A DNA stretch of 64,000 nucleotides, from positions 1,016,434-1,080,433 of the forward strand of contig OZ246948.1 of assembly GCA_965232155.1 (NCBI GenBank). The letters run 5' to 3'. Below the pieces are notes generated by a model. That model saw only the letters and a program-made list of their open reading frames with translations, ran no database searches and was not told the DNA's origin. This document shows positions 6,177-58,004 of the stretch, in pieces. This DNA comes from Thermodesulfobacteriota bacterium. Lineage in GTDB: Bacteria; Desulfobacterota_D; UBA1144; Nemesobacterales; Nemesobacteraceae. A program made the translations under genes and the position numbers. Position 1 is the stretch's first letter; every line of letters begins with the position of its first letter.

Positions 6177-6354
6177 ATCCAGAAACCACCCATTACGCTT
6201 CCCGCGACAGAAACAATTTCAACTCTGCCAACCCCGCCTCTAAGTATCTTATATGGAGGTTGTTTTTGTCAAGGAATGCGGCGAGGATTTATGAGGGAGC
6301 GGCGGAGCACTTAGTTCGAAAGCATGCTAGGTTCAGGGTACTGTTTTACCTGAA

Positions 6355-11126: not shown

Positions 11127-11621
11127 TCACGCGTCCTGGACCGAATCTTTTGTCCTCTCGACTAACTGCTCCACTCTGGGATACATGTAGATATGCAGGA
11201 TGATTCCTATTACCGAGAAAGGAATCATATCTTGGGGATTTTTGCTCAGAAACGCGAGCACAAATCCAAGCAGCACAACGGTCTCGTTTATTCCCCAGGG
11301 AACCACGTGCGGGAGCAGTAGACGGTTTGAGAGTTCCTCAATCCTTTTTTCCGGTTCCTGACCCTGCGTTGAGAGAAATTTCTTGCGAAGAGATTTCTCA
11401 GAAAGGGTAAACCTGTATATAAGAAGGGAAATTACTCCAAGTGCCGCCCCTCCCAGAAGAAATACCGCCTTTACGTTTTCTGCGACATCCGGCGCCTCGG
11501 GCGATTTGAAAATAAAAACCACCGCGGCGTAGGCGAGCATGGCAAGCAGCAGGGCGAACCAGACTATTTTCAGAGCGCTCTGGTTCTTTGCGACTGATGA
11601 GACGCGGTTTTTGCTTTCCAT
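11127..11621 (-). CDS. Hypothetical integral membrane protein (4 predicted TM helices)
   Basis: 164-aa ORF with hydrophobic segments; no recognisable family. Confidence 0.4.
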   Translation of the reverse strand: MESKNRVSSVAKNQSALKIVWFALLLAMLAYAAVVFIFKSPEAPDVAENVKAVFLLGGAALGVISLLIYRFTLSEKSLRKKFLSTQGQEPEKRIEELSNRLLLPHVVPWGINETVVLLGFVLAFLSKNPQDMIPFSVIGIILHIYMYPRVEQLVERTKDSVQDA

Positions 11622-11650
11622 GACTCTGGGTGGGGGGCGAGATTGTGCGC

Positions 11651-11860
11651 TCAGGATGTGATCTTGGCGAAAACCACGCTCAGGATTATAAGAGCGACCA
11701 GGATTCCCATCATGTAAAAAGGCACGCTTGGGTTATATCCCTTTTCTATGTTCGGAACCCTTTTCTGGGACCAGATTATTGGGGCCGCTTCGTTTTCATC
11801 CGGCGCCTCGGTTTCCTGCTCCGCCATTTCTTCTGTTTTCTGCTCTTCGGTCTCCGCCAT
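11651..11860 (-). CDS. Small acidic protein with a C-terminal TM helix (hypothetical)
   Basis: MAETEEQKTEEMAEQETEAPDE...MMGILVALIILSVVFAKITS. The antisense plus-strand ORF 11630..11875 was judged less likely. Confidence 0.3.
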   Translation of the reverse strand: MAETEEQKTEEMAEQETEAPDENEAAPIIWSQKRVPNIEKGYNPSVPFYMMGILVALIILSVVFAKITS

Positions 11861-12002
11861 TTTAAGGTTTCCTAGGACTGAGCGTACGAAGAAATTATCA
11901 CGCAACCCTCCCCGAAAATCAAGTTTCCCATAGGGCCGGCGACCCTTGGGTTTCCTTGAAAACCCGGTCCCGTGTATTTATACTTACCCCAACATTGTAA
12001 AA

Positions 12003-12962: not shown

Positions 12963-13388
12963 ATGGCCAGCATAGAGGAAATAGTAGAGGAATTCCAGGT
13001 GGCGGACCGTCAGGGGATGATTGACCTGCTCAAGGACTACTCCGAGGAGCTGCCGGAGGTTCCCGAAAGGGTTCTCAGCCTGATGGACAGGGACGCCAAC
13101 CGTGTGCACGAGTGCGAAACCCCCGTTTTCATCTGGGTTGAGAGGGAAAACGGTGCCGTAATGATATTCGCCGACGTGCCGGGACCGTATCCGACCGTCA
13201 GGGGGCTTGTTTCGATTCTCGTAACCGCGTTTTCCGGCCTGAGCCCCGAGGAGATAGAGTCAGCTCCCCCTGATTTCATTTCCCAACTCGGACTTGCGCA
13301 GTTGCTCGGAACCAGGAGGATGTGGGGGATTTCCGCCGTCTACTCGAGAATAAAGAGCGAGGTGGGGAAAACGAAGGAGGCGCCATGA
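12963..13388 (+). CDS. sufE: SufE-family sulfur acceptor protein
   Basis: VHECETPVFIWVE aligns with SufE active-site region QGCQSQVWIV. The downstream blocks (RGLVSILVTAF...SPEEI; LGLAQLLGTRRMWGISAVYSRI) follow the SufE pattern. Confidence 0.7.
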   Translation: MASIEEIVEEFQVADRQGMIDLLKDYSEELPEVPERVLSLMDRDANRVHECETPVFIWVERENGAVMIFADVPGPYPTVRGLVSILVTAFSGLSPEEIESAPPDFISQLGLAQLLGTRRMWGISAVYSRIKSEVGKTKEAP

Positions 13389-13774
13389 TAGAAGAGCAGA
13401 GAATGAAGATGATCATGGATCACTACGAAAATCCGAGAAACTTCGGTCCGCTTGAGAACCCGACGGTGACGCTTAGAGGTGGCAACCCGAATTGCGGAGA
13501 CACGCTGAATATCTATATTCGCACAGCCGATGGGGGAGTCATAGAAGATATAAGTTTTGACGGGGAAGGCTGCACGATAAGCCAGGCCGCGGCTTCCCTT
13601 CTTACGGAGTTTATAAAGGGAAAGACTGTGGAGCGGCTCAGAGAGCTCGACTCTGACTACCTCAAGGAACTTCTTGGCAAGGACATCATGGTAACTCGCC
13701 CGAAATGCAGCCGCCTCGCCCTTGAAACCCTCAAATCATGGGCAAGGGATTTCGAGAGGGGAAAAACCGCCTGA
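13385..13774 (+). CDS. sufU: SufU/IscU-type Fe-S cluster scaffold / sulfur-transfer protein (NifU N-terminal domain)
   Basis: NPNCGD, GEGCTISQAAAS and PKCSRLALE three-Cys pattern. AGGAGG ribosome-binding site; 4-bp overlap with sufE. Confidence 0.75.
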   Translation: MIEEQRMKMIMDHYENPRNFGPLENPTVTLRGGNPNCGDTLNIYIRTADGGVIEDISFDGEGCTISQAAASLLTEFIKGKTVERLRELDSDYLKELLGKDIMVTRPKCSRLALETLKSWARDFERGKTA

Positions 13775-13826
13775 TTTTTGGTATACTTCTCTTTATTACT
13801 CAACCAGATTCAAGGAGATTCAAACG

Positions 13827-15161
13827 ATGAAAAACGGCAAACTCGATAAAACGGTTCTAAGCGAAAGGATTGAAGAAGCGCTTAAATACCCGCTTTTTGA
13901 TTCCATATTCAACAGGCGCTCAAGAAGATTCGGTCTTGGAATGGAGCTTAAGGACAGCACCCTTGAGTTCAAGTCGAACTACGATCCCGTGCCTCTCACA
14001 GAGATGGAGGAAGCGCTTCTGGTGTGGGCCGGAACGGGGCTCACCGGGCTTTGCCTCGCTGACCTGCCGCCAGAGAACGGGATAGACCTTCTATGCCAGT
14101 GGACGGGAAGAACCTGGCCTTCTGCGTGCAATAACCACGGGACTGAGCTTTTTTTCACAAATGATAACGGTCTTTACCACGTGGACGTAAAGAACATGCT
14201 TCCCAAGGAACATGAGATCGATCTGTTTTTCAAGCTCTCCCGCGAGGAGAAAATCGCGAGGGTTCTGGAACTCTACAGGGAAAGCATTAACAAGCTTGAG
14301 GACGGAAGGGCCGACATGCCCGACAAGATGCCGGGACTTTTTGAGTTTAACCAGTGGAATACAAACAAGCCCGGCACCACGCTTTTTGTTCCGGTGACGG
14401 ACGTCACCGAGGAGTACCTGAATCTTCTTACCCTTTACTGCAGCCACAGCTACGGATTCACGATCATAGACGATCTTACCGGAAAGCCCGCGGGCGTTGA
14501 GAAATGGGTGGAGACAGGCAGGCTCAAGGGCGATATAAAGCTTTCTCTATTCGATCTCGAGGTAAGAATTCTTACGGGACTTAACGTTGAGCAGGCGTTT
14601 ATCACGCAGAACATGGCCCTTGCTCTCCAGCCCCTGGGGCTTGCGGGATGGGCGTTTACGGGCTTCATACCGAGGTTCGCCATGGGAGCCGCTCCGAATC
14701 TGTTCAAGGGTCTCGGATTCCGTTTCGTTCAGCCGAAAAAAGGTACGATCGATCCTCCCACCACCGTTCCCGTAGGAAAGGACGGGGTTTTTGAAGCTTA
14801 CTGTCCACCCTACTATGAGAACATGGATGATGCGATTGATCACTTCTTGGCCCATAAATGGAGAGCGTGGGAATCCGACAAGCCTTTCCCGTACACGGAA
14901 CCCGACAGGCATCTCATGAAGGCCCCGAGGCCCACGGATACCACCATAGAGATTGTAAGGGCTGTCGCTAACTATATTTATGACACTTACGGCAGATTCC
15001 CAGCGTTTGTGGATCCCATGTACATGAGGCTAGTTTTTCAGGCGATGCACATAGACGTGGATTTCTATGACCAGTATTACCCGAAGGGTTCCTATTCGGA
15101 CAGGCATCTGCAAGCTTTTCTCGAGAACAATCCGGACCAGAGAGAGCGGTTTAAAGAGTAG
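13827..15161 (+). CDS. Enlarged nitroreductase-superfamily protein (444 aa), function unknown
   Basis: N-terminal FNRRSRRFG (RRSxRxF nitroreductase signature) and C-terminal ITQNMALALQPLGLAGWAFTGF (QNxxLAxxxLGLG), with about 250 extra residues between. Ribosome-binding site AAGGAG 8 nt upstream of the ATG at 13827. Confidence 0.5.
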   Translation: MKNGKLDKTVLSERIEEALKYPLFDSIFNRRSRRFGLGMELKDSTLEFKSNYDPVPLTEMEEALLVWAGTGLTGLCLADLPPENGIDLLCQWTGRTWPSACNNHGTELFFTNDNGLYHVDVKNMLPKEHEIDLFFKLSREEKIARVLELYRESINKLEDGRADMPDKMPGLFEFNQWNTNKPGTTLFVPVTDVTEEYLNLLTLYCSHSYGFTIIDDLTGKPAGVEKWVETGRLKGDIKLSLFDLEVRILTGLNVEQAFITQNMALALQPLGLAGWAFTGFIPRFAMGAAPNLFKGLGFRFVQPKKGTIDPPTTVPVGKDGVFEAYCPPYYENMDDAIDHFLAHKWRAWESDKPFPYTEPDRHLMKAPRPTDTTIEIVRAVANYIYDTYGRFPAFVDPMYMRLVFQAMHIDVDFYDQYYPKGSYSDRHLQAFLENNPDQRERFKE

Positions 15162-15217
15162 CGCCTGCCCTGTGAGTAGAGTTTGACCCGGTTTGCGGTA
15201 GGGGGAGAGAATCAGGC

Positions 15218-16550
15218 ATGCGCGTAGCTATCATCGGAAATGGGGTAACGGGGGTTGCGGCCGCCCTGAGTATACGCAGGCTCCAGCCCGACTGGGAGAT
15301 CATCATGATCTCGGGGGAGTCCTCTTTTCACTATTCCCGCCCGGCGCTCATGTACATATTCATGGGCCACATGAGCTACAAGGACACCAAGCCTTACGAG
15401 GACAGTTTCTGGAGGAAAAACCGCATTGATTTGGTAAGGGGATGGGTTACAGAAATTGATGCCGCCGGGAAAAAGCTCATTATGCACGAAAAAGATCCCG
15501 TTTCGTTCGATAAGCTGCTTGTCGCCACGGGATCCAAGTCAAACAAGTTCGGTTGGCCCGGCCAGGGTCTTGGAGGAGTACAGGGCTTCTACAGCCTTAT
15601 GGATCTCAGGCTTCTTTACGAGAACGTAAAAGGAGCCCGAAGTCGTCGGAGGTGGCCTGATCGGGATCGAGCTTGCTGAATGCTCCATTAAAAGGAGCCC
15701 GAAGCGCCGTTATCGTCGGAGGTGGCCTGATCGGGATCGAGCTTGCTGAGATGCTCCATTCGCGCAATATCCACGTCACACTGGTGAGAGAAGAGTCCTA
15801 CTGGATAACGTCCTTCCGATTGAGGAATCACGGATGATAAACCGCGTGATTCTGGAGCAGGGGATTGATCTCAGGCTCTTAACGGAGCTAAAGGAGATAG
15901 TAGGGGACGATTCGGGGAGAGTGCGGGGAGTCGTAACCAGCAAGGAGGAATTCATAGAATGCCAGATCGTCGGTCTTACCGCGGGAGTAAGTCCCAACAT
16001 AGCTCTTGCCAAGGCAAGCGGGATAAAGACAGGGAGGGGGATTCTGGTTGACCGCAGCTTCAGGACCGATACCCCGGATGTGTTTGCCGCCGGGGACTGC
16101 GCCGAGATAATCACTGAGGGGGATGGAAGGAACCTTATTCAGCAGGTCTGGTACACCGGCAAGAACCAGGGAAAAGTGGCTGGAGAGGCGATAGCCGGCC
16201 GACACAGCGTGTATGACCCCGGAATCTGGTATAACTCGGCTAAATTCTTCGATCTTGAGTACCAGACTTACGGTAACGTGAGAAACGTTCCTGCCCAGGG
16301 GGAGGACAGTTTTTACTGGGAGCATCCCGATCACAGCCGTTCAGTAAGAATCGTTACGAAAGACGGAGCCGTCTGCGGCATAAACGTCATGGGTCTTCGC
16401 TACAGCCACAGGGTTTGCGAGAGCTGGGTGGCGGAGAAAAGGCCCCTTGACTATGTGCTCGATCATCTGGGGGATGCCAATTTCGATCCGGAATTCTATG
16501 AAGAATGTGAAGCGGAAATAATAAGGGAGATAAGGAAACAGGCCGCCTGA
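15218..16550 (+). pseudogene. NAD(P)H-dependent FAD oxidoreductase of the pyridine-nucleotide-disulfide family (ferredoxin/rubredoxin-reductase or NirB-N-like), disrupted
   Basis: N-terminus MRVAIIGNGVTGVAAA...YSRPALMY (no redox-active Cys), second Rossmann RSAVIVGGGLIGIELAEML, C-terminal GDCAEI. The reading frame is broken by an imperfect 62/71-nt tandem duplication (15628-15760) and a 1-nt deletion near 15804 (GG vs GGG). Confidence 0.6.
15628..15760 (+). repeat. Imperfect tandem duplication (62 nt plus 71 nt) inside the flavoprotein gene
   Basis: Copy 1 is aaaaggagcccgaagTcgtcgg...gctgaAtgctccatt. Copy 2 carries an extra CGCCGTTAT and an extra G. Deleting copy 1 restores ...ENVKGARSAVIVGGGLIGIELAEMLHSRNIHVTLVREESYW. 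Confidence 0.8.
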
Positions 16551-17944: not shown

Positions 17945-18005
17945 CTTCGGCGCCCGAAGTCTTTATTTTCCGATCCTTAAAATGCCCGACACAACAGCTA
18001 AGCGC

Positions 18006-18458
18006 TCAGATATTGAGAAACTTGACGGATTCCAGACTTTCCTTTTTCCCGCGGTCGGCTCTTTCGATTATCTCGCCGCTTTCTATGTCAAATATGAAGC
18101 AGGATATACCGGAAAGTATTTCCATGTTAAACTCCAGAAAGTTGTTGACGTATAGCTTGGAGTCTTCAACAATTTCCTTTTTGTCGGCTTTCTCCGGTTT
18201 TCTTACTAAAATAAAATACGCGCACAGAAAATCCGGAAGATCCGGGTTGTGGGCAAATACCGCTTTTGAATCGTATTTCAGGATTACATTATTGTTGAAA
18301 TAGCGCTGGTATCCAGCAATTAGCGGCTGATTCAGATGAGACAGCGCGTAAACTATTGCGCAGGCGATTTTGCTCTGGTTCTCAATCATGAAATCAAGCG
18401 CTTCCTTGTTGAACCGCTCGAGTGTTTTTTCCGCTTCCTCTTTTCTTCGTGGTGACAT
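18006..18458 (-). CDS. Hypothetical protein (150 aa) in a locally AT-rich segment
   Basis: ORF only; no recognisable motif. Confidence 0.35.
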   Translation of the reverse strand: MSPRRKEEAEKTLERFNKEALDFMIENQSKIACAIVYALSHLNQPLIAGYQRYFNNNVILKYDSKAVFAHNPDLPDFLCAYFILVRKPEKADKKEIVEDSKLYVNNFLEFNMEILSGISCFIFDIESGEIIERADRGKKESLESVKFLNI

Positions 18459-18560
18459 TTTATCCTCCTTGAGAAGTTCCCTTCGCCGGTTTTCCCCTTT
18501 AAGTGGTGGTGCTAATATACCATAAACCTTAAAGCGGGGGTGGAAGTGCCGTTGCGTTCT

Positions 18561-23699: not shown

Positions 23700-24598
23700 G
23701 TGATGAATTGTTTCGTAAAATCACACGGGTTGGGAAATGACTATATCGTCCTAGACAGTGCCGAAATAGATTTTGATCTCGGCAAATCCGCCATAGAACT
23801 TATATGCCACAGGAATTACGGCATAGGTTCGGACGGCATACTGCTTCTGGTTCCCCCTGCAAGGGGGGATTTCGGGCTCAGGATTCTCAATCCTGACGGA
23901 AGCGAGGCGGAAAAAAGCGGAAACGGGCTCAGGATTTTCGCAAAGTATCTCTACGAGAGAAAACACGCCTCGGACAAGACTTTTTCCATAGATACTCCCG
24001 GCGGTCTTGTTACTGCCGAAGTTGAGGAAGAAGACGGAAAAGTCCACCACGTCACTGTGGAGATGGGCGCTGCGACTTTCAGGGCGGATGAGATACCGGT
24101 AGATATAGAAGAGGAAGAAGCGGTGGCGCAGCGTCTGGTTCTCGGCGCGGGAGAATTTGATTTTACCGCCGTTTCGGTGGGGAATCCCCACTGCGTTATT
24201 TTCTTCGAAGAGCTAAGAGAAGATCTGATAAGAGAACTCGGACCCGAAATAGAAACCCATCCCGTCTTTCCTAACAGAACTAATGTTCAGTTCGCCCAGG
24301 TGATCTCGCCCGACAGTGTTCGTATTTTGATCTGGGAGAGGGGGGCTGGCTACACTCTTGCCTCAGGAAGCAGTTCCTGCGCGGTCGCCGCCGCGTGTGT
24401 GAAGTCCGGTCTTACGGACCGGAAGCTCAGGGTGCTGATGCCTGGCGGGCATCTCGACATAAGCGTCGGGGAGGACTGGGCGATCACTATGCGCGGCGAG
24501 GTGGAAGAAGTCTTTCTCAGGAATGTTAAGCGACGATCTTCTTTACAAGCTAAGAAATCCTTCCTCTATAAACTTATAGGGCAACCGGTTCATTTTTT
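23700..24598 (+). CDS. dapF: Diaminopimelate epimerase; no stop codon before the downstream amidohydrolase start (apparent in-frame fusion)
   Basis: NCFVKSHGLGNDYIVLD, GNGLRIF, SVGNPHCVIF and ERGAGYTLASGSSSCAVAAA: both DapF half-domains with catalytic Cys residues. Frame continues ...GEVEEVFLRNVKRRSSLQAKKS...MERLLLAADVV. Confidence 0.85.
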
Positions 24599-25855
24599 GA
24601 TGGAGAGACTGCTTTTAGCGGCGGATGTGGTGATTCCGGTAAGTTCTGAACCGATTCGCAATGGAGCCATCGTGGTGGACGGGGGACGTATCATTGACAT
24701 CGGAACATCAGATAGAATCGAGGCTGACTATCCCGGCTTGCAGAAAATAAGAAAGCCGAACTCTATAATACTCCCTGGGTTCGTAAACGCCCACACCCAC
24801 CTTGAACTCAGTTGGACAAAGGGGAAGATCAGGGGTTTCGAAGATTTCACCGGATGGCTCGAGAGGCTGATCACTCTTAAAGCCGGCGGGGTTGATCAAG
24901 ATCTTGTGGAGGATTCAATGAGGGCGGGGATTCGCGACGTCATTGAGAGCGGAGTCACCACAGTCGGAGAGATATCTTCCCTGGATTTCGGCGGGAGGGA
25001 GATTCTTAGAAGCTCGGGAATGAGAATTATTGCATTTCTTGAACTTTTTGACCGCATCTCCCAAGACTTTCCTCGCTCGAATTTCAAAGAGAGGGCCTCT
25101 ATGAGGAAAGACCTTTTCCTCATGCGCCTTATTCCTGCGGGCCGGGGCTTCTGGAGGCGGTTTTTGCCTGTGCGCGCGAAAACGCGGTTGCGGCGGGAAT
25201 CCACCTGGGCGAGAGTCCCGATGAAGTCGATTTTCTGAAGAACCTGCCCAATGAATTTGAACGGAAAATCTTTCCGCTCATAAAAAAAGAAATCTTCAAA
25301 AGGCCACGGGCCGATACTCCGACACGCTACATAAACAGATTCCTCCGCGGAAAAAACATAAGACTCTCCGCAGTTCACATGGTTCAAGTGGCGGATGAAG
25401 ATATGGAGATAATCCGAGGCGCCGATATCGGCATTATTCTCTGCCCAAGAAGCAATGTTTTTCTCAGAGTGGGCAAACCTAACCTGAGCCAGATGCTTGA
25501 TCATAAAAGAGTAGGGCTCGGGACCGACGGACTTTCAAGCAACTCGGATCTTGATTTCTTTCAGGAGATCAGGTTCCTGCATGAAATTATGGTTGAGCAG
25601 GGAATACGGCAAAGCACCCGTCTGGCGGTCTACTTTGCGACTCTGGGCGGAGCAAGGGCTCTTTTTATCGAGAAGAAGACGGGGAGTCTTGAGGTCGGAA
25701 AAAGTGCTGATGTCATATGCATTGGGTGCAAAGGGGCAATTGCCCCGGACCCCTATTCCTCGATAGTGTCTTCAAAGCCGGAGGACCTCCAGTTCTCAAT
25801 TGTAGGAGGGAATTTCATCTACAAAAAGGACTCTCCGGCTCCTTGTGAGCATTAG
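24599..25855 (+). CDS. Amidohydrolase-superfamily deaminase (MtaD/SsnA/aminofutalosine-deaminase-like), frameshifted near 25115
   Basis: ADVVIPVSSEPIRNGAIVVDGGRIIDIGT...ILPGFVNAHTHLELS. A -1 frameshift then follows in a CCC run (should read ...RKDLFPHAPYSCGPGLLEAVF...HLGESPDEVDFL...). It continues as track ORF 25379..25855 (GTDGLSSNSDLDFFQE...GSLEVGKSADVI). Confidence 0.6.
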
Positions 25856-25872
25856 TTTCCTCAGTATCTGCG

Positions 25873-26949
25873 ATGGCTGAACCTAAGCCCGAAAAGCTTT
25901 TTGTCTATGGAACCCTGCGAAAGGGCGGGGTAAGAAGCGGGCACCTTGAGCGATGCAGGTTGCTCAGGATGATAAAAGTTCCCGGGATTCTTTACCGTAC
26001 GCCTTTTGATTATCCGGCGGCCGTGTTTGACGAGACTTCCCCGCTTGCCGTCCTGGGAGAGCTTTATGAACTTCCCCCGGATTCTGAAGTCTTCATCGGA
26101 AGCGTGGACCGTCTCGAAGGGGTGAATGAAAAGCTTTTTTCAAGATCCGTTATCTGCTTGGAAGAGGAGTTTTTTTACGCCTATGAACCCGGCCCTGAGC
26201 TCAGAAGGCAGATTAGCGATGCGGACATAATAAAAAGCGGCAACTGGTTCTCGGGCCCCGACATCTGCGGCGCGGATCCTTTTTCTTTTGCCGTCAGTTT
26301 TGAAAACATCCAGAAGCGGTATTACAGGATGAAATCTGACGGTCGCTCAGAAGACAATATTTTTCTTGAAGGCACGGTCCCGGTTCTGGTTACCTGTCCG
26401 CACTCAACCGCTCACACGAGAATGGGAAAACTGAAACGCCATGAGTTCTATACCGCCGCTCTGGGAGCCGTGCTGCATATGGTTCTCGGCTGCCACTTTC
26501 TTTACGCGAACAGGGAACAGGAAACAGACCCGAATTACTATGACGACTGCGGTTTTAAGTCTGCGCTCGGAAGAGTTCTCTCCGCGAAGAAAATAGATCT
26601 GGTTGTGGACATACACGGTACCGGAAACGAGAGGTCCGAGGACCTGTTTCCAGGCGTGGGGGTTGGAAGGGAGTTCCTTCTTTCGGCGCCTGATGTTCTT
26701 GACAGATTTTATCTTGTCGCCGAAGAACATGGAATTGTGACCGGAAGCGCCGATATATTCCCCGCCGCAAGGCAGATGACCGTGGCCAAGTTCGCTGCGA
26801 AGCGGTTTTCGGTTCCCGCAATCCAGGTTGAGATAAGCGACAGGCTCAGGATGCCATGGCGACGGGAAGATGAGTTCCGCCGTCTCATAGGATTTCTTCT
26901 CGGATTTGTTGAAAAAGTAATCTCGGAGAAAACTGGCCAGAGCGGATAA
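25873..26949 (+). CDS. Fusion of a gamma-glutamyl cyclotransferase (AIG2/GGCT-like) domain and an N-formylglutamate-amidohydrolase-like (FGase/zinc-hydrolase) domain
   Basis: N-terminus KLFVYGTLRKGG...YPAAVF...GELYEL (GGCT fold motifs). C-terminus VLVTCPHSTAHTR...VDIHGTGNERSED resembles FGase/succinylglutamate-desuccinylase-type metal sites. Confidence 0.5.
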   Translation: MAEPKPEKLFVYGTLRKGGVRSGHLERCRLLRMIKVPGILYRTPFDYPAAVFDETSPLAVLGELYELPPDSEVFIGSVDRLEGVNEKLFSRSVICLEEEFFYAYEPGPELRRQISDADIIKSGNWFSGPDICGADPFSFAVSFENIQKRYYRMKSDGRSEDNIFLEGTVPVLVTCPHSTAHTRMGKLKRHEFYTAALGAVLHMVLGCHFLYANREQETDPNYYDDCGFKSALGRVLSAKKIDLVVDIHGTGNERSEDLFPGVGVGREFLLSAPDVLDRFYLVAEEHGIVTGSADIFPAARQMTVAKFAAKRFSVPAIQVEISDRLRMPWRREDEFRRLIGFLLGFVEKVISEKTGQSG

Positions 26950-26959
26950 TGGAATAAAA

Positions 26960-27793
26960 TTACTCGCAGAGAATATCAAGCATTGGGTTCTCGGCTATGA
27001 TTCCCTTTGCGCGGGCTTTTTCAAAAAGATACTCAAGAGCCCCGGTTCCGCTCTCGCCAAGATCCCTGGTCCACTCGTTTACGTACATTAAAACGAACTT
27101 CTCTCCCGTATCCTCGCTCATCCCCCTTCCAAAGCGCATTGCGTAATCAAGAGCCTCCTTTTTGTTTGAAAGTGCGTACTCTATGCTTTCTTTGTGTACC
27201 CGAAGAACTTCGGCGTCAAGCCCCGGGGGTATGTCTCTTCTAAGCACGTTAAGTCCAAGCGGCATCGGAAGATCGGTCTCCTCGGCCCACATTGCCCCGA
27301 GATCGAACAGAAGCTCAAGCCCCGTCTCTTCGTAGGTAAGCTGTCCTTCATGTATAAGAAGACCCGCGTCCGCCTCTCCTTCCAGTACCTTGTCCATGAT
27401 CTTGTCAAAGGGCTCTTCCACAGGGATGAAGTCATCAGCATAGAGACTCAGAAGAAGATATGCGGTAGTAAGCTTTCCAGGCACCGCGACGGTTTTTCCC
27501 CTGAGGTCAGAAACTTTCTCCTTGGCGACCACAATGGGGCCGTACCCTTTCCCCATGCTGGCACCGCAGGAAAGAATCCGATAGCGGTCCTGCACGCTAA
27601 GGTATCCGTGGGCGGAGATTGCCGTGACTTCGAGTTCCGCCTTCATCGCTCTGTTATTAAGGGACTGTATGTCTTCAATCACGTGCTCGAAGTCGATTTC
27701 CTCCGAAGCCACCTTTCCGTTCGCTATGGCGTAGAACATGAACGCGTCGTCCGCGTCGGGGCTGTGCCCCAGCTTCATCATCCGTTTTTCCAT
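26960..27793 (-). CDS. mqnD: 1,4-dihydroxy-6-naphthoate synthase (futalosine pathway)
   Basis: MKLGHSPDADDAFMFYAI matches the MqnD signature GxSPCPNDTFxFxAL; MqnA/MqnD periplasmic-binding-protein-like fold family. Confidence 0.7.
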   Translation of the reverse strand: MEKRMMKLGHSPDADDAFMFYAIANGKVASEEIDFEHVIEDIQSLNNRAMKAELEVTAISAHGYLSVQDRYRILSCGASMGKGYGPIVVAKEKVSDLRGKTVAVPGKLTTAYLLLSLYADDFIPVEEPFDKIMDKVLEGEADAGLLIHEGQLTYEETGLELLFDLGAMWAEETDLPMPLGLNVLRRDIPPGLDAEVLRVHKESIEYALSNKKEALDYAMRFGRGMSEDTGEKFVLMYVNEWTRDLGESGTGALEYLFEKARAKGIIAENPMLDILCE

Positions 27794-27816
27794 TCTCGTC
27801 TCCTTTTGGATTTCGT

Positions 27817-28653
27817 CTACGACGGGTCTGTGTAGAAGTTGATTTCGTTTTTCTTCTCTATTTCGTTCAGCTCAAAAAGAAAGTCGCGGTATTTGATGAG
27901 CCCGTCAATTTTGGGACCGTCAAGGTCGTATTTAATTCTTTTTTGAAGGTAAGTCATACACTGTTCCCTGTTGAGTCCAAGTTTTCGAGATTCGATATCT
28001 ACTATCTCCGGGATGAGTTCCACTCCCTGTTCTCTTATCGAAACGAGGCATTTGCAGCCCTGCGCGGTAGCGTCATCTCCTTTTTTCATCGCCATTACCG
28101 CATATACAAAGGGAAGGGCGGTTTCCCTAGTCCAGAGTTCCCCTAGGTCGTACGTGAAAGCGGATTTTTCTGCGGAAAGGTAACGGGCCCTAAGACCCGC
28201 GTTGCCGATAAGCATCCCGGCGTCAACTCCCTCAAGGAAACCGTTTCCGGGCTCTCTTTTTACGTATTCGGGTTTAAGCCCCAAAAAGAGTTCGAGAACG
28301 ATTCTGAGCAGGGCCGTTGAACTCCTGGACCTGCTGTCAACCGATACGCTCCTTATTTCCGTTATTTTTTTCCGTGCCTTGAGTATGACACTGTCGACTT
28401 TTCCGAAAGAGGATATGGAAATGTGGGGCAGAATGCAGTAGTTGTCGGTTCTTAGAAATTCAACCGAGGGAATGGGTGCGATATCCACTACTCCTTCCGA
28501 CAGGTTCTCCGAAAGAAGGAAAGGGTCAAAATACATTATATTGAAATTGTGCTCCACAACGCCCTTTTCCAGAGGATAAACAAACGGTCGCATGTTAAGA
28601 AAAGGCGCTGCTCCGAGGTTTATCAAGGACCTGTCCCCACTTTCCTGACTCAT
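27817..28653 (-). CDS. mqnA: Chorismate dehydratase (futalosine pathway)
   Basis: LINLGAAPFLNMRPFVYPL matches the MqnA signature (GxIxYLNxxPL). Start taken at MSQESG, whose ATG overlaps the dgt stop by 4 bp; the track ORF extends to 28761. Confidence 0.7.
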   Translation of the reverse strand: MSQESGDRSLINLGAAPFLNMRPFVYPLEKGVVEHNFNIMYFDPFLLSENLSEGVVDIAPIPSVEFLRTDNYCILPHISISSFGKVDSVILKARKKITEIRSVSVDSRSRSSTALLRIVLELFLGLKPEYVKREPGNGFLEGVDAGMLIGNAGLRARYLSAEKSAFTYDLGELWTRETALPFVYAVMAMKKGDDATAQGCKCLVSIREQGVELIPEIVDIESRKLGLNREQCMTYLQKRIKYDLDGPKIDGLIKYRDFLFELNEIEKKNEINFYTDPS

Positions 28654-33427: not shown

Positions 33428-33596
33428 CTTCCGTGAGAATGTGTAGAGACCGTCTGCTCCCGCATGCGGTCTGCCGGGGAGATTCGTTTCGGTGAAACGC
33501 TGAACGGAAGCTCCAACCTGCCGGCAAGCCTATTTTCTTACATCGGCCTCTTGCGGTTATACTTACCGAAATAACTGATTTATATTTCAACATCCT

Positions 33597-35090
33597 ATGA
33601 GCACCCAACTCATCATCAACTCGCTTTTTAACGAAACGAGAATAGCGGTTCTAGAGAAAAGCAGGCTGATCGAGCTTTTCATCGAAAGAAAATCCAGTTC
33701 CTCAATGGTGGGGAACATCTACAAGGGCAAAGTCGAGAAGATAGTCCCCGGAGTGCAGGCGGCGTTTGTCGGCATGGGAGACAGCAGGTCCGGGTTTCTC
33801 TCCGCCGAGGATGTGTATGAAGAATCGCTTAGCGAACTTTTTCTTGAAGAGGAAGAGACAAAAAAGGCCTCCAGAAAAAACCACCAGCCGATACAGAAGG
33901 TGCTGCGTCAGGGTCAGGAAGTGATGGTTCAGGTGACAAAGGAACCCACCGGAAACAAGGGTCCCAAGCTTACCTCTCACGTAGGCATACCGGGCAAGTA
34001 TCTTGTTCTGCTTCCCGGGTCAGATTCGGTGAACGTTTCCCGCAAAATAACCGACAGAAAAAGCAGGAAAAGATTTTCCGAGATCATGCGGAATAAGCCC
34101 GAAGACATGGGTTTTATAGTGAGAACGGCGTCTGTGGAAGCGGATGAGAAGGACATCAAGACCGAGATGAGAGCGCTTGTGAGAAAGTGGAGAAGGATAA
34201 AGAAAAAATATGAAGAATCGAAGACTCCGGGTGTGATATACGAAGAGGCCGATACCTGTATCAGGGTCGTCAGGGACCTGATGGGGAACGGCCTTAAGAA
34301 AATTGTCGTTGATTCCCCCAAAGCCCACGGCAGGATTACCAAGTACTTTTCTGACAAGATTAAGAAGGATGGCTTCAAAGTCGATATTTACGACAAGGAA
34401 GAACCCATATTCGATAGATACGGAATCGAGAGCCAGATCGAAAAAATGTACAGAAAAAAGGTCTGGATGAAGTCGGGAGGTTACCTGATCATAGACGAGG
34501 CCGAGGGACTCACCGTGATAGACGTTAACTCCGGGAAACTCGTCGGAGAGGAATTTCACAAGAAAACAATAATGAGAACGAACGAAGAAGCCGCAGTTGA
34601 AGCCGCAAGGCAGATAAGGCTTCGCAATCTGGTCGGAATCATAGTTATCGATTTCATAGACATGCAGTCTGTTAGATCCAGAAGAAAAGTGGAGTCACTT
34701 TTCGCAGATGAGATGAAAAAGGATAAGGCTAGGACCACGATCCAGGAAATATCGTCTTTCAGCGTAATACAGCTTACCAGACGCAGAATCAGGGAAAGTA
34801 TACTTTCCGACTTGACCGAACCTTGCGATACCTGCGAGGGGAGCGGACGGATAAAGTCGATATACACCACCTGTTACGAGATACTGAGGGATATTGATCA
34901 ATGGACAAGGCAGAGCGCTAAAGGACCTCTTGTAGTGCAGGCCAACAAAAAGGTCATAGCGAAGCTCAGAGAAATAGAAGGAAGATCCATAAGAAAAATC
35001 CAGCGGGAGAGGGGCGTAAAGATAAAGTTCAAATCGACTGAAGATGGATTCGAGGGGTTCACCATTTCCGGAGAAGGAAGCTCCGGTTAG
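33597..35090 (+). CDS. rng: Ribonuclease G/E family endoribonuclease
   Basis: S1 domain (GNIYKGKVEKIVPGVQAAFVGMG), DNase-I-like and Zn-link regions (GLTVIDVNSGK...IVIDFIDM, CxxCxGxG). Confidence 0.85.
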   Translation: MSTQLIINSLFNETRIAVLEKSRLIELFIERKSSSSMVGNIYKGKVEKIVPGVQAAFVGMGDSRSGFLSAEDVYEESLSELFLEEEETKKASRKNHQPIQKVLRQGQEVMVQVTKEPTGNKGPKLTSHVGIPGKYLVLLPGSDSVNVSRKITDRKSRKRFSEIMRNKPEDMGFIVRTASVEADEKDIKTEMRALVRKWRRIKKKYEESKTPGVIYEEADTCIRVVRDLMGNGLKKIVVDSPKAHGRITKYFSDKIKKDGFKVDIYDKEEPIFDRYGIESQIEKMYRKKVWMKSGGYLIIDEAEGLTVIDVNSGKLVGEEFHKKTIMRTNEEAAVEAARQIRLRNLVGIIVIDFIDMQSVRSRRKVESLFADEMKKDKARTTIQEISSFSVIQLTRRRIRESILSDLTEPCDTCEGSGRIKSIYTTCYEILRDIDQWTRQSAKGPLVVQANKKVIAKLREIEGRSIRKIQRERGVKIKFKSTEDGFEGFTISGEGSSG

Positions 35091-35109
35091 TCGAAAGAGG
35101 CGTTCTAAG

Positions 35110-35532
35110 TTGGGAAAAAACGGATTTCTTTATCATGTGGCGATCGCCGTGAAAGATATCAAGAAAGCTGAGGATATCTACTGCAACCTACTCGGACTTC
35201 GGGTTGTCCACAGAGAGGATGTGGTCAACTATGGGGTCAAAACATCGATGCTTTGCTCCGAATCGGAAGAGGGCACTGCGATTGAGCTTATCGAGCCTTT
35301 GGACGAGAATTCTCCGATTTCGCAGTTCCTGGAGAAAAGAGGGGAGGGCGTTCACCACATCTGCTTTCTTGTGGACGATATAGAATCTTCTCTCCGGGCC
35401 CTAGAAAAAGAAGGAGTCAGGCTTATCGATGAACATCCGAGGCCGGGATCTTACAACTGTAAAGTCGCCTTTATACACCCCAAGTCAATGAACGGAGTGC
35501 TGGTGGAACTTGCGGAGAAAATGGAGGACTGA
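35110..35532 (+). CDS. mce: Methylmalonyl-CoA epimerase (VOC/glyoxalase family)
   Basis: YHVAIAVKDIKKAEDIY...IELIEPLDENSPISQFLEKRGEGVHHICFLVDDIE...VAFIHPKSMNGVLVEL. TTG start at 35110 with AAGAGG ribosome-binding site; the track ORF starts earlier, overlapping rng. Confidence 0.7.
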   Translation: MGKNGFLYHVAIAVKDIKKAEDIYCNLLGLRVVHREDVVNYGVKTSMLCSESEEGTAIELIEPLDENSPISQFLEKRGEGVHHICFLVDDIESSLRALEKEGVRLIDEHPRPGSYNCKVAFIHPKSMNGVLVELAEKMED

Positions 35533-40297: not shown

Positions 40298-40618
40298 CTG
40301 TTTATACCACGGTCCTTAAGCTTGATTAGCACCTTCGGTTTTCCCATCACCGGAAGCAGGGAGAGAAGCAAGGCGATGAAACATAGAGCGGTAATCTGTG
40401 TACTTCATATTTGATTTCTCGTGTAATTTTCAATCTAGTATTTTAACAGATTGCGGGTCATCATATCTGTCGCGATCCTTTTTGAACGAAGGACGGACAT
40501 AAGATAGAATAACGGTCTGTGGTGTTCAGCAGTATGCGGCGGGCTTGGCGTTTTTGATTGACAGCTTCAACATAGTCGGTTCGAAAATTTTAGAGATACC
40601 ACAATTCAGTGCGGAACT

Positions 40619-41278
40619 ATGAGTTACGGAGCAGTTGTATTTGATCTTGACGGAACCCTGATTGACTCTCTTGAGGATCTTGCCGATGCGGTGAATCAGG
40701 CGCTTGCAATAAGCGGGTTTCCGCCTCGTGCGACAGAGTGTTTCAAGTATTTCATAGGAAAAGGTCCCAAGGTCATGGTGTCCAGGGCCCTTCCCGAAGA
40801 CGGAAGAAACGATGACTCAGTCGTTGAAAAATGCCTTGAGGACTTCAACAGCATCTACAGCCGGGCCTTCAATGTGAAAACCGCGCTTTATGACGGCATC
40901 CCCGATCTTCTGGACGAGATTTCGGACAGGGGCCTTAAAAAGGCGATTCTTACCAACAAGCCGCACGTGTTTACCGAAAAATACGTGGAGGACCTGCTTG
41001 CGGACTGGAATTTCGAGGTGGTCATAGGTCAAAGGGATGAAATTCCCAGAAAACCCGACCCTTCCGGAGCGCTTCGGATATCAAGGGAGCTTGGAATTGA
41101 GTCGTCACGGATGGTTTACCTTGGAGACTCCGGGGTGGACATGCGTACCGCCGTCGGGGCGGGTATGCTTCCGGTGGGGGTTCTCTGGGGGTTTCGAACC
41201 GGAGACGAGCTTCGCGAAAACGGGGCCGAGCACCTTATAGAAACTCCGATGGAACTGCTCTCGATTATTGACTTGTAG
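40619..41278 (+). CDS. HAD-IA family hydrolase (phosphoglycolate-phosphatase-like)
   Basis: AVVFDLDGTLIDS motif I, ...LTNKP..., YLGDSGVDMRTAVGAG motifs III/IV. Confidence 0.75.
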   Translation: MSYGAVVFDLDGTLIDSLEDLADAVNQALAISGFPPRATECFKYFIGKGPKVMVSRALPEDGRNDDSVVEKCLEDFNSIYSRAFNVKTALYDGIPDLLDEISDRGLKKAILTNKPHVFTEKYVEDLLADWNFEVVIGQRDEIPRKPDPSGALRISRELGIESSRMVYLGDSGVDMRTAVGAGMLPVGVLWGFRTGDELRENGAEHLIETPMELLSIIDL

Positions 41279-41288
41279 TTTCCGGCAC

Positions 41289-49928: not shown

Positions 49929-51723
49929 ATGAAGAACTATTCTTCCACATCAGCGATAGCGGATATAAAAGCAAGGCTCAGCATAGTAGATGTTATACAG
50001 GGCTTTGTTTCCCTTAAAAAATCTGGAAAGAACCATATCGGGCTCTGCCCGTTCCACGACGACAACAACCCTTCCATGCAGGTAAATGATGAGAAGGGTT
50101 TTTTTCATTGCTTCAGCTGCGGAGCCGGAGGAGATGTATTCGGCTTCCTGATGAGATACAGCAATATAGGCTTCCCCGAAGCCTTAAAAGAACTTGCCAA
50201 GAAAGCCGGAGTCAGACTCCCGGCTCCGCGTCGGCGCACCGAAAGTGAGAAGAAAAAAGAGGCCACTTCGGCGAGGTTTTTCAAGATAAATTCTCTTGTC
50301 TGTTCGTTTTACAGCGATAATCTCCACAAGGTCGGGAAAAAACTCCGCGCGGGCTAGAAAGTACCTGGAATCCAGAGGAATCGGTCCAGAGATAATCGAG
50401 GAGTTCAAGCTTGGCTTTGCCCCAGACAGCTGGGATGCCGTTGTGAAATTCGCTTCAGCGAAAAATATAGGTATCAAGGAACTCGAAAAACTTGGTCTTG
50501 TCGCTGCGAAGAAGAGCGGAAGCGGCCATTACGATCGGTTCCGAAACAGGATTGTTTTTCCCATAGATGAGATAACGGGACAAATTTGCGGTTTCGGCGG
50601 CAGAACTCTGAGCGAAGATGAACCCAAACAGCCGAAATACATGAATTCCCCTGAATCCCCGGTTTTCGACAAAAGGAGCATTCTTTACGGAATTTACCGC
50701 TCGAAAAATGAAATCGGAAGAGAACGGAAAGCCGTTTTGGTTGAAGGCTACATGGATTTCATAAAGCTCTACGCAAATGGAATACGCAACGTGGTCGCCA
50801 CCTTGGGGACGGCTTTTACGAATGACCACGCCAGGCTTCTGCGACGTTTCTGCGAGGAGGTGGTGATTGTCTACGACGGCGATACCGCCGGGATACGTTC
50901 CGCTGTCCGGGCCGGAGAGATTCTTCTTGAGCAGGGGATTTCTTCAAGCATTTGCCGTATTCCCGATGGCCTCGACCCCGATGATTATCTGGAGGAGCAC
51001 GGATCTGAGAGTCTCGCCGGGCTGATCGAAGCCGCCGTTGATGTCTCGGATTTTATTATTGACGACACTTTTGCAAGGTACAGGGAAAAGAAAATGTCTT
51101 CCGGAGAGTCGATAAAATTTCTTGTGGATTTAGTTTCAAAAATAAAAGACCCGGTCAGAAGGGCTGAAGCTGTTTCCAAGGTAACAGGGCTTTTCGGGAT
51201 AAGGGAGTCTGAGTTCCTCTCTATGGTGAAGACTTCGGATCCGGGGAGAAACCGCGGGTCGCTTGCGCCGGCGACCCTGATTCCGGAAAAGAACATTCAT
51301 GAGAGAGAAATTGTTAGGATACTGCTTAAATTTCCCCACCTGATGAACGCCGAGAAGATTGAAAATATCGGTAGGCATTTTGAAAATGGTGATTTAAAGG
51401 TTATTCTCAAACGTGTGGGTGAAGGGGAGTTTACCGAAGTTTCCTCCCTGATGAGTTCTTTTGAGAAAATCGAGATGCAGCAACTGCTGAGCGAATTGAT
51501 TTTTTCTTCGGATAATTTGGTAGATGAGACGATTTCGGAGAAAATATTAAAGGACTGCGTGAAGGAGCTTGAACTGAAAAATATAGCTTTTAAGCGTAAT
51601 GAAGTAATAGAGAGAATCCGCAAGCAGCGTGACTCTTCGGATAAGAACCTCGAAAGAAAACTTGTTGAACAATACAGGGATCTGGTGAGTATGGAAAAGA
51701 CCATAAAAGAGGCTGCAAGTTGA
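49929..51723 (+). CDS. dnaG: DNA primase, with an apparent +1 frameshift in an A6 run near 50325
   Basis: Zn-finger [30 protein letters not shown], then ...[12 protein letters not shown]| after which the frame shifts to [14 protein letters not shown]... (removing one A restores the frame). TOPRIM EGYMDF...VYDGDTAGI. Confidence 0.85.
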
Positions 51724-57898: not shown

Positions 57899-58004
57899 TA
57901 AAGTTTCACCGCGTTGTGGTTAACAAGCTTGTATAAAACGGTTAAAATCACAGGTCCCAAAGTATACCACGGGTTTAAGCGATTTATATCACGGGAAAAC
58001 CTTA

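What the first reader, a model, noticed from the sequence alone, without database searches (positions are those of the whole stretch)
23700..25855. DapF and an MtaD-like amidohydrolase in one reading frame (read-through fusion)
The diaminopimelate epimerase ORF has no stop codon. After the last DapF motif (ITMRGEVEEVF) a 25-residue basic linker runs directly into MERLLLAADVVIPV..., the start of a class-III amidohydrolase (PGFVNAHTHL; HAPYSCG; GTDGLSSN; GSLEVGKSAD). Either a real bifunctional fusion exists, or a single T-run error near 24512-24530 removed the DapF stop (frame +2 gives ...EVFSQEC*). With mqnA and mqnD 2 kb away, the amidohydrolase is a candidate aminodeoxyfutalosine deaminase; an MtaD/SsnA function is equally possible.
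Basis: partly seen in the sequence, partly recalled or inferred. Interest (0 to 1): 0.5.

Follow-up and report, generated by a model that had tools for sequence, protein, structure and literature searches.

The report
Frameshift artefact joining two separate genes
The apparent DapF–amidohydrolase fusion comes from two single-base indels found only in this one assembly, almost certainly consensus errors, and every relative has two ordinary, separate neighbouring genes; a side observation is that this DapF has serine in place of both catalytic cysteines.

Summary
The ORF is real as written: 23700/23703..25238 reads DapF, 28 odd residues, then the amidohydrolase start. It is not "one reading frame". 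The amidohydrolase C-terminal 264 residues (HAPYSCG, GTDGLSSN, GSLEVGKSAD) lie in another frame (25061..25855).

In 17 orthologous loci (47–94% identity), dapF (287–292 aa) and the amidohydrolase (411–429 aa) are always separate, 2–72 nt apart. The window differs by one extra base in CTTTCTC (24512–24518) and one missing base after 25060. Undoing both gives a gapless 2153/2153 alignment, a 291-aa DapF with the ortholog tail (…EVFSGMLSDDLLYKLRNPSSINL*) and a 418-aa amidohydrolase. The "linker" is dapF's tail and the 20-nt spacer read out of frame.

The fused protein occurs once, on the 1.51-Mb source contig. That contig also has a frameshifted dnaG and an indel-riddled 62-nt duplication in an oxidoreductase gene. 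Substitution patterns show no relaxed selection. Verdict: consensus errors, about 0.8; recent real lesions, about 0.12.

The amidohydrolase scores best against the aminofutalosine deaminase family but falls below its cutoff.

Side observation: this DapF belongs to a large subfamily with serine at both catalytic cysteine positions. I found no description of it.

The parts
23703..24579 (+). dapF, true gene. It is read 23703..24512 in the ORF frame, then, after one surplus base within CTTTCTC (24512-24518), 24514..24579 in the next frame. The stop is TAG 24577-24579. The repaired product is 291 aa. It carries Ser at both canonical catalytic Cys positions (S72, S221).
   Evidence: Orthologs are 287-292 aa. 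DNA alignments show the single extra base only in the window. The repaired protein scores 245.8 bits against TIGR00652 over profile positions 3-269/270, and its tail is identical to the L003 ortholog. Ser/Ser is seen in the alignments.
24512..24518 (+). Site of the +1 indel: window GTCTTTCTC versus GTCTTCTC, GTTTTTTC or GTCTTTTC in relatives. It removes the dapF stop from the reading frame. The position is a T/C polymorphic site among relatives.
   Evidence: Pattern scans found 4 genome and 2 metagenome loci, all with the 38-nt (no-insertion) form.
24516..24599 (+). The '28-residue basic linker'. It is the out-of-frame translation of the last 20 dapF codons and its stop, plus the 20-nt dapF-amidohydrolase spacer (24580-24599).
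   Evidence: The spacer length equals that of orthologs L001-L004.
24600..25855 (+). Amidohydrolase gene (cog0402-type metal-dependent deaminase). The N-part 24600..25060 is in the ORF frame and the C-part 25061..25855 is one frame back, because one base is missing after 25060. The repaired product is 418 aa.
   Evidence: All close homologs are 418 aa with 100% coverage. Alignment. Gapless 2153/2153 alignment after repair. The metal and catalytic residues H65, H67, H202, E205, H260 and D310 are invariant in the family and present here.
25059..25061 (+). Site of the -1 indel: window ATCTC-CCAAG versus ATTTCGCCAAG or ATTTCACCAAG. The lost base is the third position of a Ser codon, which is polymorphic among relatives.
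25062..25238 (+). Out-of-frame tail of the as-read ORF (58 meaningless residues plus the stop).
25873..26949 (+). GGACT-domain protein (358 aa), the third member of the conserved dapF-amidohydrolase-GGACT gene trio.
   Evidence: Pfam PF06094. It lies immediately downstream of the amidohydrolase in all loci examined.
26960..28641 (-). Two PF02621 (VitK2_biosynth, MqnA/MqnD-type) genes, convergent with the trio.
   Evidence: Precomputed Pfam calls on the orthologs. NCBIfam gave no hit at 1e-5.

Best explanation
The window carries two ordinary, separate, co-directional genes: dapF (291 aa) and a 418-aa metal-dependent deaminase of the amidohydrolase superfamily, 20 nt apart. They sit in a conserved cluster: dodecin, dapF, amidohydrolase, GGACT-domain gene.

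In this one deposited assembly (a single 1.51-Mb contig), a surplus base near the 3' end of dapF shifts translation off the dapF stop. In relatives the amidohydrolase lies one frame behind dapF, so the +1 error happens to put its start in frame, and no stop intervenes in the 28 out-of-frame codons. A missing base 548 nt further on throws the amidohydrolase out of frame again.

I infer that both indels are consensus or assembly errors. They probably arose at strain-variable positions of a long-read metagenome assembly; that specific origin is inference, not shown. They are not biology. In the organism, DapF and the deaminase are made as separate proteins.
For: 1. In 17 orthologous loci at 47-94% identity the two genes are separate, with spacers of 2-72 nt and lengths of 287-292 and 411-429 aa.
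2. The window's two indels are absent from all ten close relatives. Undoing them gives a gapless 2153/2153 alignment.
3. The repaired products have exactly the ortholog lengths. The DapF tail after the shift is 20/20 identical to L003.
4. All catalytic residues downstream of the second shift are intact.
5. Window-lineage codon changes downstream of the amidohydrolase shift are 18 synonymous to 14 non-synonymous. Intact L008 also shows 18:14 and L001 shows 13:9, so there is no sign of relaxed selection.
6. The 511-aa product exists on one contig only. In its 90%-identity cluster of 169 members, the other listed members are 288-295 aa.
7. The same contig carries other frame-breaking defects:
   - dnaG, an essential gene that is 597 aa in nearly all close relatives listed (a few are 592-604 aa or contig-truncated fragments), is split at 50329-50342, around an A6 run. 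The source's own gene call is a 475-aa fragment.
   - A Pyr_redox_2 gene carries a 62-nt tandem copy that differs from its twin only by an 8-nt and a 1-nt deletion, plus a further -1 at 15806.
   - That makes five frame-breaking defects in four genes within about 37 kb that could be compared.
8. An exhaustive HMMER search of 1.84 billion representatives with the fused ORF found no DapF+amidohydrolase protein among the best 150. The real DapF fusions there are with LysA, Mur ligase, alanine racemase and GNAT.
Against: - No reads are available, so the indels cannot be shown to be errors.
- No independent assembly of the same lineage exists in the collections. The nearest proteins are 92-95% identical, so a very recent real mutation cannot be excluded.
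- The source genome (1.51 Mb) is the smallest among the relatives' large contigs seen here (about 1.5-2.4 Mb). A lineage undergoing gene decay is therefore conceivable.
- Only the dnaG indel lies at an unambiguous homopolymer run (A6). The dapF and amidohydrolase sites are at most short T or C runs, and 15806 is not a homopolymer.
Confidence: 0.82

Rival explanations
1. The indels are real, very recent mutations. This Dadabacteria lineage would carry a DapF with an aberrant C-terminal extension (DapF 1-272 + 28 residues + 154 residues of amidohydrolase N-terminus + 58 junk residues) and a dead amidohydrolase, meaning incipient pseudogenes in a shrinking genome.
For: The deposited sequence says so, and the public gene calls match it. 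The genome is small at 1.51 Mb. Four broken genes in about 37 kb could also be read as ongoing decay.
Against: One of the broken genes is dnaG, which is essential. There is no excess of non-synonymous change and no second lesion downstream of any shift. The damaged 62-nt duplicate differs from its twin only by deletions and has no substitutions, which points to a consensus artefact rather than an aged duplication. No relative shares any of the lesions.
Confidence: 0.12
2. A genuine, functional bifunctional DapF-amidohydrolase fusion protein.
For: The two genes are always adjacent and co-directional, sometimes only 2 nt apart. That is the kind of arrangement from which fusions arise. DapF does form natural fusions with other partners.
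Against: The amidohydrolase part of the ORF stops being amidohydrolase after 154 residues, so three of the metal and catalytic positions (H202/E205, H260, D310) are out of frame. The linker is out-of-frame dapF sequence. No fusion appears in any ortholog or among the best 150 of 1.84 billion representatives.
Confidence: 0.02
3. Programmed ribosomal frameshifting or transcriptional slippage restores the normal proteins from the shifted DNA.
For: The dnaG shift lies at or near an A6 run.
Against: No relative has the shifted arrangement, so nothing is conserved. The runs are very short (T3, C3, A6). From general knowledge of slippage at poly(A) tracts, they are too short for efficient slippage. 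No slippery heptamer is evident at 24513 or 25061.
Confidence: 0.01

Closest known systems
Indel (frameshift) errors in metagenome-assembled genomes that create split or falsely fused gene calls
   Same: Single-base indels are unique to one assembly and restore ortholog-length genes when undone. Several genes on the same contig are affected, including the essential dnaG. An indel-only corrupted tandem copy is also present.
   Different: The sequencing platform and read support could not be checked here. Only the dnaG indel sits in an unambiguous homopolymer run.
Diaminopimelate epimerase DapF (TIGR00652 / PF01678)
   Same: The repaired protein gives a full-length match well above the cutoff (245.8 vs 114.65 bits). 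It has two DAP_epimerase domains and keeps the motifs GNDY, NPDGSE, GNG, GNPH, RTNVQF and WERGAG. From memory, unverified here, these include the DAP-binding positions.
   Different: Both catalytic cysteines of characterised DapFs are serines here (EKSGNG, TLASGSS). The same holds in a large sister subfamily.
Aminofutalosine (aminodeoxyfutalosine) deaminase, EC 3.5.4.40 (NCBIfam NF006269; PDB 7lkj from H. pylori; 3v7p/4m51, which I recall, unverified, to be Nitratiruptor Nis0429)
   Same: It is the best-scoring NCBIfam family, with one colinear full-length alignment. The amidohydrolase metal and catalytic residues are conserved. MqnA/MqnD-type genes lie 1-2 kb away in most Dadabacteria loci.
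   Different: The score of 180.5 is far below the 320 cutoff. MTA/SAH-type deaminase structures score as well or better (3lnp, 4dzh, 4f0r). The conserved gene partners are dapF and a GGACT-domain gene, and in two lineages (L014, L017) no mqn genes are nearby.
Natural DapF fusion proteins (LysA-DapF, DapF-Mur ligase, DapF/alanine racemase, DapF-GNAT)
   Same: They show that DapF does get fused to pathway neighbours.
   Different: None has an amidohydrolase partner. In those proteins both domains are complete and in frame.

Membership tests
Bifunctional gene fusion (DapF + amidohydrolase) | One uninterrupted ORF containing both complete domains | tested here: not met
   The ORF ends at 25238. 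The amidohydrolase C-terminal 264 residues are in another frame.
Bifunctional gene fusion (DapF + amidohydrolase) | The fusion is present in orthologs or in independent genomes | tested here: not met
   0 of 17 loci. 0 of the best 150 representatives. The fused product is on one contig only.
Bifunctional gene fusion (DapF + amidohydrolase) | The linker is a bona fide coding segment rather than shifted sequence | tested here: not met
   The linker is the dapF tail plus the 20-nt spacer read out of frame. In the other frame it encodes the conserved tail SGMLSDDLLYKLRNPSSINL*.
Diaminopimelate epimerase DapF (TIGR00652) | Profile score above the curated cutoff, full length | tested here: met
   245.8 bits against a cutoff of 114.65, profile positions 3-269/270, after repair.
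Diaminopimelate epimerase DapF (TIGR00652) | Pair of catalytic cysteines (thiol/thiolate two-base mechanism; Cys73/Cys217 in H. influenzae numbering, from established literature) | tested here: not met
   Ser72 and Ser221 align with the Cys of 3ejx, 2otn and 9mro. This is conserved in all orthologs.
Diaminopimelate epimerase DapF (TIGR00652) | Conserved substrate-binding motifs (GND, N-DGS, GNG, GNPH, N-QF, ERG) | tested here: met
   The motifs are identical or conservative in the alignments to solved DapFs. Assigning them to DAP contacts is from memory.
Aminofutalosine deaminase (NF006269, EC 3.5.4.40) | Profile score above the curated cutoff | tested here: not met
   180.5 bits against a cutoff of 320. 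It is nevertheless the top family and aligns full length (8-376 to 6-375/408).
Aminofutalosine deaminase (NF006269, EC 3.5.4.40) | Amidohydrolase metal ligands and catalytic Glu (HxH, HxxE, H, D) | tested here: met
   H65, H67, H202, E205, H260 and D310 are invariant in 23 homologs including the repaired window protein.
Aminofutalosine deaminase (NF006269, EC 3.5.4.40) | Genomic association with futalosine-pathway genes | tested here: inconclusive
   Two PF02621 genes lie 1-2 kb downstream (convergent) in L001-L004, L011-L013 and L016. They are absent near the gene in L014 and L017.
Aminofutalosine deaminase (NF006269, EC 3.5.4.40) | Residues that bind the futalosine carboxylate; deamination of aminofutalosine | not tested
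   The primary papers (Goble 2013; Feng 2021) are not held in the library.
MtaD (MTA/SAH deaminase, NF012037) and SsnA (NF005540, TIGR03314) | Profile score above the curated cutoff | tested here: not met
   MtaD scores 91.9 against 779. SsnA scores 78.7 against 444 and 67.9 against 455.5.

The most novel reading that the evidence does not exclude
The fusion itself has no novel reading left beyond 'recent real lesions' (about 0.12, low interest).

The most novel thing inside the finding's coordinates is the DapF. It belongs to a large, phylogenetically broad subfamily in which both catalytic cysteines are invariant serines.
- 80 of 135 aligned representatives are Ser/Ser.
- All 120 best hits to a Ser/Ser profile are Ser/Ser.
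- Members come from Dadabacteria, Planctomycetota, Armatimonadota, Methylomirabilis, Spirochaetes and Actinomycetota.
- The conserved DapF motifs are kept, and Ser/Ser domains are fused in nature to LysA, Mur ligase and alanine racemase.

If these proteins are active meso-DAP-forming epimerases, they would use a non-thiol two-base mechanism. I could not find this described, and cysteine-to-serine mutants are reported to hinder catalysis.
Probability: 0.3. Interest if true: 0.6.

Novelty: not a real feature. Interest (0 to 1): 0.1.

Why it matters
For the finding as stated, the value is negative knowledge. The fused "bifunctional" ORF, already present in public protein collections as a 511-aa product, should not be propagated as a new domain architecture. 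The source MAG should be treated as carrying indel errors, since at least four genes are broken in about 37 kb checked.

Three things remain biologically useful:
- dapF, the deaminase and a GGACT-domain gene form a conserved trio across distant lineages. This is a better functional clue for the deaminase than the nearby mqn genes.
- The deaminase is only a candidate aminofutalosine deaminase.
- The Ser/Ser DapF subfamily deserves an enzymological look, because it challenges the textbook thiol/thiolate mechanism or marks a mis-annotated family.

Tried and rejected
- Exact look-ups of the fused ORF and of the GGACT protein in the contig index found nothing. The same was true for the source's dnaG fragment P0330. 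The source record name, platform and reads therefore could not be obtained. The cluster table did confirm that the products exist on one 1,513,048-bp contig.
- A degenerate DNA pattern spanning the +1 site was scanned in genome contigs and metagenome contigs to find independent copies of the insertion. Only the uninserted form was found, 6 of 6.
- I looked for a near-identical independent assembly of the same lineage among all proteins fetched. None exists; the best are 92.6% (amidohydrolase), 95.2% (DapF) and 93.1% (DnaG).
- I tried to read the primary aminofutalosine deaminase papers to get specificity residues. They are not held, so no residue-level test of AFL versus MTA/SAH specificity was made.
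- A profile search of the PDB did not discriminate: 3lnp 175.5, 4dzh 173.1, 3v7p 170.8, 4f0r 155.8, 7lkj 152.4 bits.
- Programmed frameshifting is rejected for lack of conservation and of slippery sites.
- I checked other adjacent same-strand ORF pairs in the window for split genes (11130-11977, 13274-15158, 33579-35529, 40562-42440, 57243-58622). None shows a split domain.
- Three literature searches for a natural Ser/Ser DapF found nothing.
Full report
**1. What is in the sequence**

The ORF list and three-frame translation show an open frame from GTG 23700 / ATG 23703 to a stop at 25236-25238. It reads, in order:
- DapF up to …ITMRGEVEEVF;
- 28 residues, LRNVKRRSSLQAKKSFLYKLIGQPVHFL;
- MERLLLAADVVIPV…PGFVNAHTHL…, which continues as recognisable amidohydrolase for 154 residues;
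- 58 residues that match nothing.

Pfam and NCBIfam agree. DAP_epimerase/TIGR00652 covers residues 5-272 of the ORF. Amidohydro_1 profile positions 1-92 fall in the ORF, and positions 126-331 fall in the other frame. So there are two frame discontinuities, not one, and "one reading frame" holds only for the first 1.5 kb.

**2. What relatives look like**

A homolog search with the two amidohydrolase halves joined returned several dozen stand-alone proteins of 418 aa at 75-90% identity covering 100% of the query. The named ones are Candidatus Dadabacteria. None is longer than 433 aa.

Contigs encoding these homologs are syntenic with the window gene for gene: ZapA, RF-1, a cytochrome c assembly protein, dodecin, dapF, amidohydrolase, a GGACT-domain gene, two PF02621 genes, an HD gene and hisF. 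In them dapF is 291 aa, the spacer is 20 nt, and the amidohydrolase is 418 aa.

More distant homologs (65% and 44-47% identity) keep dapF, amidohydrolase and GGACT as three separate consecutive genes, with spacers of 2 to 72 nt. This holds in two different neighbourhoods.

**3. The two lesions**

DNA alignment against ten close relatives (88-94% identity) shows exactly two frame-breaking differences in this gene pair, both private to the window:
- One surplus base in GTCTTTCTC (24512-24518). Relatives have GTCTTCTC, GTTTTTTC or GTCTTTTC.
- One missing base after 25060. The window has ATCTC-CCAAG; relatives have ATTTC[G/A]CCAAG.

Removing one base and adding one gives a gapless 2153/2153 alignment from the dapF start to the amidohydrolase stop with seven relatives. 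The repaired DapF is 291 aa and ends …EVFSGMLSDDLLYKLRNPSSINL*, which is 20/20 identical to ortholog L003 after the shift point. The repaired amidohydrolase is 418 aa.

In relatives the amidohydrolase lies one frame behind dapF. A +1 error therefore brings it into the dapF frame. The "linker" is the dapF tail and the spacer read out of frame.

Both indels fall on positions that vary among relatives: T/C in GTC TT[C/T], and the third base of a Ser codon. That is what a consensus error at a strain-variable site would look like (inference).

**4. Is it real or an artefact?**

- A degenerate pattern across the +1 site found four species-representative genomes and two JGI metagenome contigs, all with the uninserted spacing.
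- The exact 511-aa product (P0391) and the 158-aa C-terminal fragment (P0406) are in the public protein collection, each on a single contig of 1,513,048 bp. This is the source genome. P0391's 90% cluster has 169 members, and the other 14 listed are 288-295 aa.
- No independent assembly of the same lineage is available. The nearest proteins are 92-95% identical.
- Lineage-specific codon changes show no relaxation downstream of the amidohydrolase shift. The window has 18 synonymous to 14 non-synonymous changes; intact L008 has 18:14 and intact L001 has 13:9.
- All metal and catalytic residues beyond the shift are intact.

The same contig has other defects. About 37 kb of the window (14.6-32.9 kb and 43.0-61.6 kb) could be aligned to relatives.
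- dnaG is split into a Zn-ribbon ORF (49929..50354) and a catalytic ORF in another frame (50290..51720) by one surplus base around an A6 run (50329-50342). Nearly all close relatives have a 597-aa DnaG (a few are 592-604 aa or contig-truncated fragments). The source's own gene call is a 475-aa fragment.
- A Pyr_redox_2 oxidoreductase gene is broken by a 62-nt tandem copy (15628-15689). This copy differs from its 71-nt twin only by an 8-nt and a 1-nt deletion, with no substitutions. The gene has a further missing base at 15806. Removing the copy and restoring the base gives an intact protein.

Five frame-breaking defects hit four genes, one of them essential. Each is private to this assembly and each is cleanly reversible. 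One of them is an indel-only corrupted duplicate. Together these point to consensus or assembly error (confidence about 0.82). Very recent real lesions remain possible (about 0.12). A functional fusion is essentially excluded, because its amidohydrolase part lacks three of the catalytic positions (about 0.02).

**5. Does such a fusion exist anywhere?**

An exhaustive HMMER search of 1.84 billion 50%-identity representatives with the 511-aa ORF gave only single-stretch DapF matches among the best 150. The long proteins in that list are DapF fused to LysA, Mur ligase, alanine racemase or GNAT domains. None has an amidohydrolase.

**6. What the amidohydrolase is**

The repaired protein scores best against NCBIfam NF006269, "aminofutalosine deaminase family hydrolase": 180.5 bits, colinear over 8-376 and 6-375/408. 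This is well under the 320-bit cutoff. The next families are:
- TRZ/ATZ hydrolase, 155 bits;
- 5'-deoxyadenosine deaminase, 125 bits;
- MtaD, 92 bits;
- SsnA, 79 and 68 bits.

Against the PDB, single-sequence and profile searches place MTA/SAH-type deaminases (3lnp, 4dzh, 4f0r, 4dyk) and AFL deaminases (3v7p/4m51, 7lkj) in the same score range. The AFL deaminases align in one full-length stretch.

Two PF02621 (MqnA/MqnD-type) genes lie 1-2 kb downstream in most Dadabacteria loci, but not in L014 or L017. In those two loci the dapF-amidohydrolase-GGACT trio persists without them. The best statement is this: a cog0402-type metal-dependent purine or nucleoside deaminase, a candidate aminofutalosine deaminase, unproven. 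Its conserved partners are dapF and the GGACT-domain gene.

**7. Side observation on DapF**

HMMER alignments to solved DapFs (3ejx, 2otn, 9mro) put Ser72 (EAEKSGNG) and Ser221 (TLASGSS) at the two catalytic cysteine positions (E.MCGNG, TLACGTG). The surrounding conserved motifs are kept. All orthologs share this.

- Among the aligned representatives of the exhaustive search, 80 are Ser/Ser and 49 are Cys/Cys. The two types fall into separate sequence clusters.
- A profile of 41 Ser/Ser representatives retrieves 120 of 120 Ser/Ser proteins. All named ones are called diaminopimelate epimerase. They come from Methylomirabilis, Armatimonadetes, Planctomycetota, Phycisphaerae, Spirochaetes, Deltaproteobacteria and Dadabacteria. 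Ca. Solincola (Actinomycetota) also carries the Ser/Ser form; this comes from the cluster look-up, not from the profile search.
- S72 and S221 are invariant within the subfamily.
- Ser/Ser domains are fused in nature to LysA, Mur ligase and alanine racemase.
- One Ser/Ser gene sits next to ddl and namZ, which ties the family to meso-DAP and peptidoglycan metabolism.

Three literature searches found no description of a natural Ser/Ser DapF. One paper notes that Cys-to-Ser mutation hinders catalysis in this enzyme class (PMC11602996). This is unexplained and worth a separate look.

**8. Verdict**

The finding is an assembly artefact over two ordinary genes, so its interest is low. The Ser/Ser DapF subfamily is the only item here with real novelty potential.

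Noticed in passing
window 23703-24579 (S72 codon AGC at about 23916-23918; S221 codon TCA at about 24363-24365): The DapF has serine at both canonical catalytic cysteine positions (EKSGNG, TLASGSS). This defines a large, taxonomically broad Ser/Ser subfamily. It is a separate sequence cluster: 80 of 135 aligned representatives are Ser/Ser, and 120 of 120 hits to a Ser/Ser profile are Ser/Ser. All are annotated as diaminopimelate epimerase. Some are fused to LysA, Mur ligase or alanine racemase. I found no description of it in the searchable literature.
   Followed up: partly
window 15627-15760 and 15806: A Pyr_redox_2 oxidoreductase gene (15176..16547) is broken by an imperfect tandem copy. 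The 62-nt copy differs from its 71-nt twin only by an 8-nt and a 1-nt deletion. One further base is missing at 15806 relative to L009. Removing the copy and restoring the base gives an intact protein. It looks like an assembly or consensus artefact.
   Followed up: partly
window 49929-51720 (shift at 50329-50342): dnaG is split into a Zn-ribbon ORF and a catalytic-core ORF by one surplus base around an A6 run. Nearly all close relatives have a 597-aa DnaG. The source genome's public gene call is a 475-aa fragment (P0330).
   Followed up: yes
window 23703-26949; loci L001-L004, L011-L014, L016, L017: dapF, amidohydrolase and a GGACT-domain protein (about 350 aa, C-terminal 230 aa without a Pfam hit) form a conserved three-gene cluster down to 44-47% identity. 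It occurs in two different neighbourhoods, one with MqnA/MqnD-type genes and one without. The functional link is unknown.
   Followed up: partly
window 26950: The window lacks 19-20 nt that all relatives have between the stop of the GGACT-domain gene and the stop of the convergent PF02621 gene. A terminator may have been lost, or this may be another assembly defect.
   Followed up: no
window 17959-17996: The window lacks 38 nt, plus small indels, relative to L007 and L009 in the intergenic region after the 16511..17941 gene. The 18456-18560 region also aligns poorly, with many small indels.
   Followed up: no
window 4920-6218 (-): A radical-SAM protein matches CofG (FO / F420 chromophore synthase; TIGR03550, 430.8 bits). 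F420-related genes (CofC) also flank the trio in L014 and L017.
   Followed up: no
window 6331-7353 (+): An ORF has a strong Spondin_N domain hit (136 bits). I recall this domain mainly from animal extracellular proteins, and I did not check that here.
   Followed up: no
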